Source: Mobula birostris
Taxonomy: Eukaryota
Length of the DNA stretch: 45,698 nt
Reading direction: 5' to 3'
Assembly: GCF_030028105.1 (NCBI RefSeq)
Contig: NW_027276046.1
Location: forward strand, 1 to 45,698
Below are positions 6,001-9,000 of the stretch, piece after piece. A program made the position numbers. The stretch's first letter is position 1. Each line of letters opens with the position of its first letter.

Positions 6001-9000
6001 GCCTGTGTGTGTCTGTTGACCATCTTACTGTTGGGCAACAAAGCCCTCATCTACTGCAATTCACACTGTCTAACACATACCCTCCCGCTAGTCTCCTACT
6101 CCCAGAGCTCCTGCTGTGTCCACACAGTCTTTTTGGGTGATTTTAACCTCATCCACCAGCAACAATCTGTCATTGACAGTGTCAATCATGAGGTGAATGA
6201 TGTCACGTCAGTGGGTCAGAACAAACCCCGTCCACAACACTGTTCAAGGTAATTCTGACAACTGGTCAAACCACATATCCACCTGTCAAAGCTGTCAATT
6301 GGTCAATTAGCTAATTGATCTTCGCACCTTTACCTACCTTAGTAAGTCAACACGTCTCCTTTTCCTGTGAAATGAATTAAGAAACAGTGCTTTCAAGTGT
6401 ATTTCACACCTTAAGTGGTTGGGAATTGCTACAACCTGCATTTCCTCTCTGGGCTGGTCGTTCAGTGAGAATATCACCTACATCTAACAACACTTTGAGA
6501 ATTCTCCATCTCCCCAGGAATCTCATCGTCACTGTCGGTTGTGTTGGCCGACACTTCTCCACAGAGTCTGGGCTAATGTATTTCCACAGTTCCTCTGTCC
6601 TTTCTGATGCAAGTTACCATTCCCTCCCAGTTAGCCAGTAGTTTCCACAGACTCAGTGGGGTTGGAATTCTTGCTCAGTCACACACGGTAAATATGTGAG
6701 GCAGTGTCAGCTGCATCATGTAGTCTGTTGAGTTGAATTTCAGAAGCAGAGTCCATTTCCCAACCTCCACTATACTGCACACATGGTGCTGGAGACTGGG
6801 TACCACTATATCCACACCAATCACTCCTCTCATCAACAGCAACACTGAACACATCAGAATTATTCCATAAGATACTTCTAAATCTTACTTTTTTTGTAAA
6901 CTTCATTGATCAAGTGCTAACAGACTTCTCAGAATCAGGAATTGTATTTGGAGGAGAGACAGATTGTCACTTTGGTATTTTGGCTGAAATTCCACCAATC
7001 GGACATTGGGTCACTGCCTCAGTCCTGCACTGAAGTGTTGGCCTGGATTGTGAGTCCAAGTTGCCACTGTGGGATTGATCCACACCCTCCTACCTCAGCG
7101 ACACAGACTCACAGCTGAGTGTTAAAGTGATATCAGCTTTGTTTCATGAGGTGAATAATTTTGAAAATTACTGCTTTATAAAACGTCTCCTTTCTCTGCC
7201 AGTAATGCATTTATTCAGAGAACCGCCTGTGAATTTCTTTCCATTTCAGAGGTCAAGTCTGCACCATCAGTCTACATCACTCCTTCCTGCAACACAGAAT
7301 CTGACCAAGGCATCAGCCTCCTCTGTCTGGTCAAGGACTATCAGCCTGAGAGCATCAGTCAGACATGGTCCACTAACAGTGGGGACATCACCACTGGAAT
7401 TAAGAAATTCCAGGCCGGCTGGTGGCGCAGTGAGATCAGCACCAGATTCTGGAGCGAATGTTCCCGAGTTCAAATCCTGGTTAGGCCACTCCCTAGCACG
7501 CTTTCCCCACTCCCGAGCACACTGTCCATCCGTGCCCGGTTGAGTGTCGAGATAGCCACTTGGCCTCGTAAGAAATATATAAGGGTCAAGTCAGGAACGT
7601 TCATAACATGACCCGGTTAATCCTGACACCACGTGCCAGACAAGAATGGCTGAACGTCTGGTATGACATGCTAAAAAAAAAATAAGAAATACCCGGCGGT
7701 GTTGGGGCAAAATTCTAAGTACATAATGAGCAGCTTGCTTGAAGTCTCTGCGGCGGACTAGAAGAAGAATAAAGTCTACTCCTGCAAGGCAGGGAGTGTG
7801 ACATCGCAGTGGCAGAAACCTCAACCTCAATGTTAGTATCAGAACTAATTTATATCGAAAGCTGCACTGATGTCAGAGCATAAATCTGGAGTAGGAAGCT
7901 TTGTCAGATAATGCAGGAGCATGGCAACTAACTCCTTTATTCTGCTCTTACAACAGCAGTGAGAAAATGTATAACAGTCAATATGGGCAGTGAAACTCAG
8001 TATCAGGATCTGCCTCCATTGTATCCGCTCCATTGTCTAATTTCAGGAGCCTCTCCACCACCCACTCCCACTAAACCCTCCCTACAGATCAGCTCCTGTA
8101 CACATACAGAGACCGCTGGCCCATCATGCCCCTGCACACAGAACAACAATTTAAACTTTACCCCACTCCTCCGCACTTTCCCCCTCCACCCTGCAGCTGC
8201 CCTTCTTCTGGTAAAAGCAATCCCTTGTGAATGTGATGGGGGAATCCACTCCACTGCCCTTCTTTAACCAGCTTCTCACAGATCTGAACAAGCCTTTGCA
8301 GTAACAAAAAAAAAAATTTCCTCCTGTCCATCTGTTCTTCTTTCTCATTGAAAGTAAAATTGTGTTTCCCAAACTTGCCAGTGGAAACAGTCCCACACCA
8401 TGTACTCCTGCTCACAGGAGCTGGTATCAGTCATTCTCCAGTAAACAATTAGATATGGCAGGTCTGCACCTCAACCCCATGACCCACCTCTCCGCATTAT
8501 CATAGCACAGTGGGACACACTGCTGGGAGGCCCAAGTTATACACCCAGCCCTCCCACTCACTGGTGTGAGCCATCAGATCATCAGATCAGCTGTAAATTA
8601 ACAACATTCTTGAGAGGGCTGGAATTGGGGAACTTGCCTGGGATGAGGGAGAATGAAGTCAAAAACATGGGCAAAGCAATCATGTACTGACAGATATTAA
8701 ATGTGTTACAGCTCCGACGCTCAGCCCCCCTGTTACAACTCCGAAGCGCAACTCCCCTGTTACAGCTCCGAAGCTCAGCTCCCTTGTTCCATCCCGGGAG
8801 GCAATCCACGGGCAAGCAAATGTTGTCCTGGGCTGTGTGATATCTGGATTCGCTCCTGACAACGTTAAAGTATCCTGGAAAAAAGCTGGATCTGCCCAAA
8901 AAGGCATCATTCTCCCTTCCACTCCGAGATCTGATGGTGGATTTGAAACAATCGCTTACCTGACAGTGCCTGTGCAGGAATGGACCAAGAAACAGAAATA

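What the first reader, a model, noticed from the sequence alone, without database searches (positions are those of the whole stretch)
7250..7831. CH1 is inactivated twice: in-frame-length SINE insertion with TSD plus a Trp-to-stop codon
Seen: a 282-nt insert (a multiple of 3, but with in-frame TGA at 7609-7611) bounded by an 11-bp TSD with one mismatch, and an independent TAG at 7759-7761. Both splice sites are retained. Two hits in one exon and none in the other eight constant, secretory and TM exons suggests relaxed constraint specific to CH1 (inference); the TSD mismatch hints the insertion is not brand new.
Basis: seen in the sequence. Interest (0 to 1): 0.65.

Follow-up and report, generated by a model that had tools for sequence, protein, structure and literature searches.

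The report
Broken ray IgW antibody gene cluster
This is a ray IgW (IgD-like) antibody heavy-chain gene whose first constant exon is split by a young mobile-element insertion and also carries a stop codon, but its variable exon is damaged and its joining segment is missing too, so it is most likely an ordinary, recently dead gene copy.

Summary
Exon 7250-7831 is the CH1 exon of an IgW (IgD-orthologue) heavy-chain cluster of a Mobula-like ray. It is not human. A 271-nt SINE-like retroposon (7412-7682) with an A10 tail sits between 11-bp target-site duplications that match at 10 of 11 positions. The insert brings five in-frame stops, not one. The TAG at 7759-7761 replaces a Trp present in 35 of 35 relatives.

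The reading "relaxed constraint specific to CH1" is only partly supported.
- The V exon carries a +1/-1 frameshift pair in FR1 and is germline-joined to a D segment.
- No J segment exists anywhere between V and CH1, so the whole Fab-coding half is unusable.
- CH1 is no more diverged than the other exons: 6 of 98 window-specific residue changes against 26 of 537, and 33 of 35 identical to one Mobula birostris model.
- Two hits falling in any one constant exon has about an 11% chance.

Nine downstream exons are intact: CH2, short secretory tail, CH3-CH6, a second CH3/CH4 pair and TM. The insert keeps its CpGs, so it is young. Best reading: a recently inactivated pseudogene cluster. All four coding lesions lie upstream of CH2 (post hoc P about 0.002), which is unexplained and leaves a small chance that the Fc/TM exons are still used.

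The parts
846..900 (+). Leader exon (ATG at 846, donor CAG|GTGGGT)
   Evidence: 87.5% identical to the leaders of Mobula and Hemitrygon IgW models. No octamer ATGCAAAT (up to 1 mismatch, either strand) in the 845 nt upstream.
1010..1314 (+). V exon, germline-joined to the 3' end of a D segment (D-derived bases about 1306-1314). FR1 is scrambled between about 1052 and 1085 by a +1 and a -1 indel.
   Evidence: Pfam V-set matches residues 25-97 only. In 10 of 10 homologs FR1 reads as the window reads only in the +1 frame. The join to D is seen against M. birostris model P0017.
1315..1342 (+). D-type 3' recombination signal: heptamer CACGGTG, 12-nt spacer, nonamer-like ACAGAAATT
   Evidence: The stretch following the D segment is conserved in the Mobula model.
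7250..7411 (+). CH1 exon, 5' piece (53 codons). Left target-site duplication at 7401-7411.
   Evidence: C1-set profile positions 1-47. 91-94% identical to Mobula IgW CH1.
7412..7682 (+). SINE-like retroposon in sense orientation. A-box-like motif at 7423-7433, B-box-like motif at 7467-7477, internal 21-nt tandem duplication at 7486-7527, A10 tail at 7673-7682. Five in-frame stops.
   Evidence: No second copy in the window. No tRNA call by ARAGORN or Rfam.
7683..7693 (+). Right target-site duplication; keeps the ancestral TAC (Tyr) codon
7694..7831 (+). CH1 exon, 3' piece, with TAG at 7759-7761 in place of the conserved Trp. The FG loop is 5 residues shorter than in most relatives; this is shared with M. 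birostris P0032 and P0045 and so is not a lesion of this copy.
8766..9065 (+). CH2 exon, open. A 27-nt x3 tandem repeat (8704-8788) spans its acceptor.
9749..9879 (+). Short-form secretory tail exon, open and Cys-rich, with stop at 9877-9879
   Evidence: Matches the tails of the 'IgW short secretory form-like' models P0045 and P0043.
12608..13316 (+). CH3 (12608-12910) and CH4 (12999-13316) exons, open
14666..16025 (+). CH5 (14666-14986) and CH6 with the long-form secretory tail and stop (15640-16025), open
25905..26614 (+). Second, anciently diverged CH3/CH4-type pair: CH3b 25905-26207 and CH4b 26291-26614, open. This is the membrane-proximal pair.
   Evidence: In M. birostris P0032 these exon types directly precede the TM segment.
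28581..28735 (+). Transmembrane exon with short cytoplasmic end and stop, open
   Evidence: 83-93% identical to the TM regions of ray IgW TM-form models.

Best explanation
The window holds one IgW (IgD-orthologue) heavy-chain cluster of a Mobula-like ray that can no longer make a conventional heavy chain. A sense-oriented, A-tailed SINE-like retroposon inserted into the middle of CH1. I infer target-primed reverse transcription at an A-rich site, which would explain the 11-bp duplication. The insert puts five stops in frame. Separately, a single G-to-A change turned the conserved CH1 Trp codon into TAG.

These are not signs of CH1-specific relaxation. They are two of several lesions in the Fab-coding half of a cluster whose own V(D)J apparatus is already unusable: V FR1 is scrambled, V is pre-joined to D, and J is absent.

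The CH1 hits are recent. The insert still has its CpGs, and CH1 is otherwise nearly identical to a Mobula paralogue or orthologue. That is why the nine downstream exons have not yet acquired disabling mutations.

Shown here: the anatomy, the lesions, the absence of J, the equal divergence of CH1 and the other exons, and the CpG content of the insert. Inferred: the mode of insertion, the order of events, and the absence of expression.
For: Identity. The CH6 exon finds 29 IgW-type proteins, best 94% to Hemitrygon akajei and Mobula birostris. All C exons hit Pfam C1-set. The TM exon is 83-93% identical to IgW TM forms.

Lesions in CH1.

Lesions outside CH1. V FR1 reads like the 10 of 10 aligned homologs only in the +1 frame between about 1052 and 1085. 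V is fused to the D 3' end and its signal sequence.

No J. Motif scans found none. tblastn with three homolog J regions gave no hit better than E = 1.3. A degenerate J pattern scored at best 13 of 21, no better than shuffles, which gave a best score of 12 in 2 of 200 and 13 or more in 198 of 200. The 5' flank of J is identical in the Hemitrygon and Mobula models yet has no match here.

No excess divergence in CH1. Window-specific changes are 6 of 98 against 26 of 537, p = 0.61. The match to P0032 is 33 of 35.

Recent insert. CpG observed/expected is 0.78 against 0.29 for the window, placing it in the top 1.7% of 271-nt windows. The A10 tail is uninterrupted and the duplication matches at 10 of 11.

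Not adapted for life without a light chain. The V keeps G-L-E-W at the former VL interface.

Slight overall acceleration of the window lineage in CH2 to tail against P0017: 26 against 11, p = 0.02.

Pseudogene and germline-joined clusters are known in cartilaginous fish (passages read in PMC5192425 and PMC4279169).
Against: All four coding lesions and the J loss lie upstream of CH2. If four lesions fell at random over 3194 coding nt, the chance that all land in leader+V+CH1 is 0.0017 (post hoc).

The downstream exons look as good as functional ones. Only 3 of 133 columns that are invariant in 25-29 homologs are changed, within the range of annotated genes. Of the 22 window-specific changes in CH2 to tail, most are conservative, mean BLOSUM62 +0.32, milder than in two annotated Mobula genes. 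Against P0002 there is no acceleration: 28 against 21, p = 0.39.

The two V indels compensate each other, which could mean that selection once restored the frame.

Expression was not and could not be tested. No nucleotide sequence of relatives was available, so no dN/dS could be computed.
Confidence: 0.7

Rival explanations
1. Only the Fab-coding half (V, J, CH1) has been released from constraint, while the Fc and membrane exons are still used and kept by selection. They could be expressed in three ways: by skipping the broken CH1, by leader-to-CH2 splicing that gives a V-less, CH1-less product, or as the acceptor constant region when a VDJ from another cluster is joined in by the inter-cluster 'switching' described in nurse shark.
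For: The lesions are asymmetric, P = 0.0017. Nine downstream exons are open, with conservative changes and 3 of 133 invariant columns altered. All C exons and the leader are phase 1, so skipping keeps the frame. The CH1 donor is the weakest in the gene.

V-less IgW transcripts and inter-cluster switching are reported (passages in PMC5192425 and PMC4279169). One sawshark (Pristiophorus) model, P0043, joins a leader directly to CH1. CH1 loss in a ratfish IgM cluster is cited as a route to heavy-chain-only antibodies (PMC3149040 passage).
Against: CH1 shows no more substitution than the other exons, so it has not drifted for long while the rest was held. The insert is young, so intact downstream exons are expected anyway. 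The V has no heavy-chain-only adaptations and cannot rearrange. Switching as described would bring in CH1 as well. There is no expression evidence. The phase argument applies to every Ig gene.
Confidence: 0.15
2. The intact downstream exons are kept alike by gene conversion from functional IgW clusters in the same genome, not by selection on this copy. The SINE and the damaged V escape correction.
For: Similarity is mosaic. The 3' half of CH1 and CH3b are closest to M. birostris P0032 (94% and 95%), but CH2 is closer to P0017 (91%) than to P0032 (88%). Batoid IgW models carry 1-5 near-repeated CH3-CH4 pairs. A paper read in passages reports gene conversion among repeated C exons of another elasmobranch gene (PMC12227049).
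Against: The mosaic pattern could equally reflect incomplete sampling of paralogues. No same-genome sequence was available, so no conversion tract was seen.
Confidence: 0.1
3. Part of the damage is not biological. The TAG and the two homopolymer-length changes in V could be consensus errors, and the SINE could be a private or heterozygous insertion in an otherwise working gene.
For: The TAG is one transition away from TGG, and CH1 is otherwise 33 of 35 identical to P0032, the stop being one of the two differences. Both V indels change the length of a short base run, T to TT and CC to C as read against the homolog protein frame. This is a typical sequencing-error type (recalled).
Against: The insertion with its duplication cannot be an assembly error. 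The absence of J and the V-D fusion are structural. Two errors 33 nt apart that exactly compensate would be a coincidence. The window has no N.
Confidence: 0.07

Closest known systems
Pseudogene Ig heavy-chain clusters of cartilaginous fish (for example the three Ig-mu pseudogenes reported beside 9-12 functional clusters in nurse shark; passage in PMC5192425)
   Same: One cluster of a multi-cluster family, with V, C, secretory and TM exons recognisable, and with disabling mutations.
   Different: Here the isotype is IgW, in a ray. One lesion is a retroposon inside CH1. The damage is confined to the V-to-CH1 half. I found no paper describing this locus.
Germline-joined (VD-J) clusters of cartilaginous fish (passage in PMC4279169)
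   Same: V is fused to a D segment in germline DNA, and the D 3' signal sequence remains.
   Different: Described VD-J genes keep a J and are expressed. Here no J is left and FR1 is scrambled.
Heavy-chain-only antibody genes: camelid IgG without CH1, shark IgNAR, and the ratfish IgM cluster with CH1 loss (passages in PMC3149040)
   Same: The CH1 coding capacity is lost while the downstream constant exons are intact and in phase.
   Different: The V keeps the light-chain interface residues, cannot rearrange and has a damaged FR1. There is no evidence that CH1 is skipped or that any product is made.
V-less IgW/IgD forms: IgW-deltaV in dogfish and nurse shark, and catfish secreted IgD (passages in PMC5192425)
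   Same: A leader could in principle be spliced to a constant exon without a V.
   Different: The known forms splice the leader to the first constant domain, which is the broken exon here.
tRNA-derived SINE insertions that disrupt exons (general knowledge, recalled)
   Same: About 270 nt, A/B-box-like motifs near the 5' end, an A-rich tail, and an 11-bp target-site duplication at an A-rich site.
   Different: No tRNA-like fold or tRNA model match. The family and its copy number could not be established.

Membership tests
IgW (IgD-orthologue) heavy-chain cluster of elasmobranchs | Six C1-set constant exons most similar to IgW, in the order CH1 to CH6 | tested here: met
   Pfam C1-set on every C exon. 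Exon-by-exon identity of 74-94% to Mobula and Hemitrygon IgW-type models and to named shark IgW.
IgW (IgD-orthologue) heavy-chain cluster of elasmobranchs | Long and short secretory tails and a TM exon | tested here: met
   Long tail 85-95% identical. Short Cys-rich tail exon at 9749-9879. TM exon 83-93% identical to IgW TM forms.
IgW (IgD-orthologue) heavy-chain cluster of elasmobranchs | Own V, D and J segments with recombination signals upstream of CH1 | tested here: not met
   V is present but fused to D, and FR1 is frameshifted. No J in 1300-7250. It is therefore a defective member.
SINE (non-autonomous, pol III-type retroposon) | Target-site duplication flanking the element | tested here: met
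   11 bp, 10 of 11 identical, exactly at the borders defined by the homolog alignments.
SINE (non-autonomous, pol III-type retroposon) | A-rich 3' tail | tested here: met
   A10 at 7673-7682.
SINE (non-autonomous, pol III-type retroposon) | Internal A and B boxes near the 5' end | tested here: inconclusive
   A-box-like motif 10 of 11 at 7423-7433 and B-box-like motif 9 of 11 at 7467-7477, 33 nt apart. Each motif alone occurs at chance frequency in the window: 29 found against 18 expected, and 68 against 79. The consensus motifs are recalled.
SINE (non-autonomous, pol III-type retroposon) | tRNA-like (or 7SL/5S-like) head | tested here: not met
   ARAGORN finds no tRNA. Rfam gives only a CPEB3-ribozyme match at E = 0.49, below threshold. 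Fold z-score is 0.01.
SINE (non-autonomous, pol III-type retroposon) | Many dispersed copies in the genome | not testable with these tools
   No other copy in the 45.7-kb window. No eukaryotic genome collection was on hand.
Heavy-chain-only antibody gene | V domain adapted to the absence of a light chain (polar former VL interface) | tested here: not met
   FR2 keeps G-K-G-L-E-W-L as in the conventional IgW V of the relatives. Which positions matter is recalled.
Heavy-chain-only antibody gene | CH1 absent from the mature transcript | not testable with these tools
   No RNA data. The AG and GT of CH1 are present and the donor is weak.
Heavy-chain-only antibody gene | A rearranging V(D)J that gives a repertoire | tested here: not met
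   No J.

The most novel reading that the evidence does not exclude
The cluster has shed its antigen-binding half (V, J, CH1) but its CH2-CH6, short tail, CH3b/CH4b and TM exons are still expressed and under selection. The product would be either a leader-to-CH2, V-less and CH1-less 'Fc-only' IgW, which would extend the known V-less IgW forms, or a spare constant region used by VDJs from other clusters. The SINE-bearing CH1 would then be an exon on its way to being skipped, an early stage of the CH1 loss that preceded heavy-chain-only antibodies.
Probability: 0.1. Interest if true: 0.6.

Novelty: new member of a known kind. Interest (0 to 1): 0.25.

Why it matters
As it stands this is one more dead copy in a multi-copy antibody gene family, useful mainly for correct annotation of ray IgH loci. 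It should be called an IgW pseudogene and not merged into gene models.

It would matter more if the intact Fc and membrane exons proved to be expressed. CH1 loss is the key step towards heavy-chain-only antibodies, and V-less IgW/IgD forms have no known function.

The locus also documents ray IgW exon architecture: a short-tail exon after CH2, and a separate, anciently diverged CH3/CH4 pair next to the TM exon.

Tried and rejected
- **tRNA origin of the insert.** ARAGORN, Rfam at E up to 1 and folding of the 5' 77 nt (z = 0.01) gave nothing. The SINE call rests on anatomy.
- **Other copies of the insert in the window.** None beyond chance.
- **J segment.** Four different scans and tblastn were all negative. 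A weak TGGGG-containing stretch near 1765-1790 was looked at by eye (print) and dropped, because it has no signal sequence, no frame and no donor.
- **A '15-nt deletion' as a third CH1 lesion.** I first counted it and then withdrew it. Two M. birostris models, P0032 and P0045, share the short loop with the Trp intact.
- **Lower identity of the CH1 3' half (74-76%).** This is an effect of that loop difference and the stop, not of scattered substitutions.
- **Octamer promoter motif.** Absent upstream of the leader. No relative's promoter could be compared, so I give it little weight.
- **Models starting at the Met in mid-CH1 (P0030, P0032, P0045).** I considered these as a sign of a shared insertion and rejected the idea. 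That Met is simply the first ATG of any CH1 exon that lacks upstream exons.
- **Literature.** The paper on shark IgW switching (PMC3839419) is not held. What I say about it comes from review passages.
- **Left out or unavailable.**
  - A search with a spliced full-length model was left out; all searches were exon by exon.
  - Supplementary files of papers were closed and unseen. This includes Text S1 of PMC3149040 on CH1 absence, which may bear on the comparison with heavy-chain-only antibodies.
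Full report
**What the window is.** It has no N and is not human. Stop-to-stop frames and exon-by-exon comparison show one immunoglobulin heavy-chain cluster on the + strand. The CH6 exon alone finds 29 proteins at E <= 1e-5. All are IgW-type chains of sharks and rays, and the best are 94% identical: Hemitrygon akajei P0016 and Mobula birostris P0017. Every constant exon hits Pfam C1-set and the V exon hits V-set. Across exons the window is about as close to M. birostris and M. hypostoma models as these are to each other. The source is therefore a Mobula-like ray, and the gene is either a paralogue or an orthologue of theirs. All searches were made exon by exon. The step of searching with a joined, spliced model was left out.

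**Exon map**.

| Exon | Coordinates |
|---|---|
| Leader | 846-900 |
| V | 1010-1314 |
| CH1 | 7250-7831 |
| CH2 | 8766-9065 |
| Short-form secretory tail | 9749-9879 |
| CH3 | 12608-12910 |
| CH4 | 12999-13316 |
| CH5 | 14666-14986 |
| CH6 + long secretory tail | 15640-16025 |
| CH3b | 25905-26207 |
| CH4b | 26291-26614 |
| TM (with stop) | 28581-28735 |

The rest of the window is mostly LINE debris. Reverse-transcriptase domains were confirmed for two of the four ORFs tested.

**The observation.** It is correct.
- CH1 is 582 nt. The 271-nt element at 7412-7682 ends in A10 and is flanked by TAAGAAATTCC (7401-7411) and TAAGAAATACC (7683-7693).
- Thirteen of 13 relatives read straight through the junction.
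- The C1-set profile is split 1-47 and 49-81 between the two pieces. The insertion is therefore proven independently of the repeat.
- The insert brings five in-frame stops, not one.
- The TAG at 7759 stands where 35 of the 35 fetched proteins carrying the motif have Trp (45 proteins were fetched in all).
- The repeat mismatch is TTC on the left against TAC on the right. Tyr is the common state in relatives, 11 of 13, so the left copy mutated after insertion.

**Nature of the insert.** It has an A-box-like motif (10 of 11) and a B-box-like motif (9 of 11) 33 nt apart near its 5' end. Each motif on its own is at chance frequency in the window. No tRNA is called, the head does not fold better than shuffles, and there is no second copy in the window. 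I call it SINE-like on anatomy. Its family could not be established because no ray genome was searchable.

**Damage outside CH1.** There are three findings.
- *V FR1.* The window reads a stretch that matches the 10 of 10 aligned homologs only in the +1 frame between about 1052 and 1085, so there is one inserted base and one deleted base. Pfam V-set accordingly matches only from residue 25 on.
- *V joined to D.* The V end runs directly into the 3' end of a D segment and its heptamer and 12-nt spacer. This is seen by comparison with the M. birostris model P0017, which reads through its germline D and the same following sequence. The cluster is VD-joined in the germline, a known peculiarity of cartilaginous fish (PMC4279169 passage).
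- *No J.* Motif scans, tblastn with three homolog J regions including their conserved 5' flank (best E = 1.3) and a degenerate J pattern all failed. The degenerate pattern scored at best 13 of 21, no better than the best of nearly every shuffle.

The cluster cannot assemble a V(D)J of its own.

**Is CH1 more diverged?** No.
- In three-way comparisons the window has 6 private residue changes in 98 CH1 sites and 26 in 537 sites of CH2 to tail, Fisher p = 0.61.
- The low 74-76% identity of the CH1 3' half to most relatives comes from a 5-residue shorter FG loop and the stop. I first took the shorter loop for a third lesion. However, two M. birostris models, P0032 and P0045, have the same short loop with the Trp intact, and P0032 is 33 of 35 identical to the window there.
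- The insert's CpG observed/expected is 0.78 against 0.29 for the window, in the top 1.7% of 271-nt windows. Together with the uninterrupted A10 tail this suggests a young insertion.

**Do two hits in one exon mean anything?** With exon lengths as weights, the chance that two hits share any one constant exon is 0.107. The chance that both fall in CH1 is 0.011. This was noticed after the fact and is weak.

**What remains odd.** All four coding lesions (two in V, two in CH1), and also the J loss, lie upstream of CH2. For four random hits over 3194 coding nt the chance of that is 0.0017 (post hoc). The downstream exons look healthy.
- They show no stops, and no indels against the Mobula models.
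- Only 3 of 133 columns that are invariant in 25-29 homologs are changed, within the range of annotated genes.
- The 22 private changes are mostly conservative, mean BLOSUM62 +0.32.
- Against P0017 the window lineage is somewhat faster (26 against 11, p = 0.02), but against P0002 it is not (28 against 21, p = 0.39).

**Explanations.**
- My preferred account is a cluster whose V/J part failed first and whose CH1 was hit recently, leaving too little time for the rest to decay (confidence 0.7).
- The constant region may have stayed useful for a while after V/J failed, through the inter-cluster use of constant regions reported in nurse shark (PMC4279169 passage). That is inference.
- The first rival is that the Fc and membrane exons are still in use, by CH1 skipping, by leader-to-CH2 splicing or by switching (0.15). 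All C exons and the leader are phase 1 and the CH1 donor AAT|GTTAGT is the weakest in the gene, but this holds for Ig genes generally and no RNA could be examined. The V keeps the light-chain interface motif, so nothing points to a heavy-chain-only design such as that discussed in PMC3149040.
- The second rival is gene conversion from working clusters (0.1). It is suggested by mosaic similarity: the CH1 3' half and CH3b are nearest P0032, while CH2 is nearer P0017.
- The third rival is sequencing error for the TAG and the V indels (0.07).

**Comparison with what is known.** Pseudogene clusters and germline-joined clusters are established in cartilaginous fish. So are V-less IgW forms and IgW forms with 2, 4, 6 or 8 constant domains (PMC5192425 and PMC4279169 passages). 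This locus is a defective member of the IgW family. The constant, tail and TM features are met, and the V-D-J feature is not. I found no paper on ray IgW loci or on this lesion in three searches. One search on elasmobranch SINEs gave only listings that I did not read further.

**Verdict.** The finding is an ordinary, recently inactivated antibody pseudogene with one unexplained asymmetry. Not checked:
- raw reads;
- same-genome paralogues;
- nucleotide sequences of relatives, and hence dN/dS;
- genome-wide copies of the insert;
- any expression data.

Noticed in passing
window 8704-8788: A 27-nt unit is repeated 3.1 times across the CH2 acceptor and the first 19 nt of CH2. The first copy keeps an AG (exon start would be 8712) and the middle copy has AA. 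Use of the upstream AG would add 54 nt, an in-frame Pro/Thr/Ser-rich 18-residue hinge-like stretch that is open in the frame listing. It is absent from the homolog models examined.
   Followed up: partly
window 25905-26614 and 28581-28735: A second CH3/CH4-type exon pair lies 10 kb downstream of CH6 and 2 kb upstream of the TM exon. It is only 51-60% identical to CH3/CH4-type exons of the Mobula and Hemitrygon long-form models, but 82-95% identical to exons in the Pristis, Hemitrygon and Mobula models P0001, P0006, P0010 and P0032. In M. birostris P0032 the order is CH1-CH2-(CH3-CH4)x5-CH3b-CH4b-TM. This pair therefore looks like the membrane-proximal pair of the TM isoform, with CH5/CH6 specific to the secreted form.
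   Followed up: partly
proteins P0001, P0002, P0006, P0031, P0032 (ray IgW gene models): Ray IgW models carry from one to five or more tandem CH3-CH4 pairs, for example three in M. hypostoma P0002 and five in M. birostris P0032. This recalls the repeated delta exons of bony-fish IgD. The window's gene has a single pair before CH5.
   Followed up: partly
window 9749-9879: An intact exon encodes the Cys-rich tail of the short (two-domain) secreted IgW form. It lies 0.7 kb after CH2 and closely matches the tail of M. birostris P0045.
   Followed up: yes
window 3797-4097: A 43-nt unit is repeated 7 times (93% matches) in the V-to-CH1 interval. Its function is unknown.
   Followed up: no
window 1-845: No Ig octamer (ATGCAAAT or its complement, up to 1 mismatch) occurs in the 845 nt upstream of the leader ATG. 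Part of this upstream stretch is nevertheless conserved with the Hemitrygon model P0010.
   Followed up: partly
window 15914-16005: There is no in-phase GT between the end of the CH6 domain and the secretory tail. That is where IgM-type genes have their internal donor for TM splicing (position recalled). A six-domain TM form is therefore unlikely, and the TM exon is probably reached from CH4 or CH4b.
   Followed up: no
window 17100-24500, 29800-36200, 42400-45650: Multiple fragments of non-LTR retrotransposons on both strands. RVT_1 was confirmed for ORFs 31395-32876(-) and 43376-44236(+). The 3' tail of the CH1 insert shows no clear match to any of them.
   Followed up: partly
protein P0043 (Pristiophorus japonicus model): An annotated 'IgW short secretory form-like' protein whose leader runs directly into CH1 with no V. 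This is a gene-model counterpart of the V-less IgW transcripts described in the reviews.
   Followed up: no
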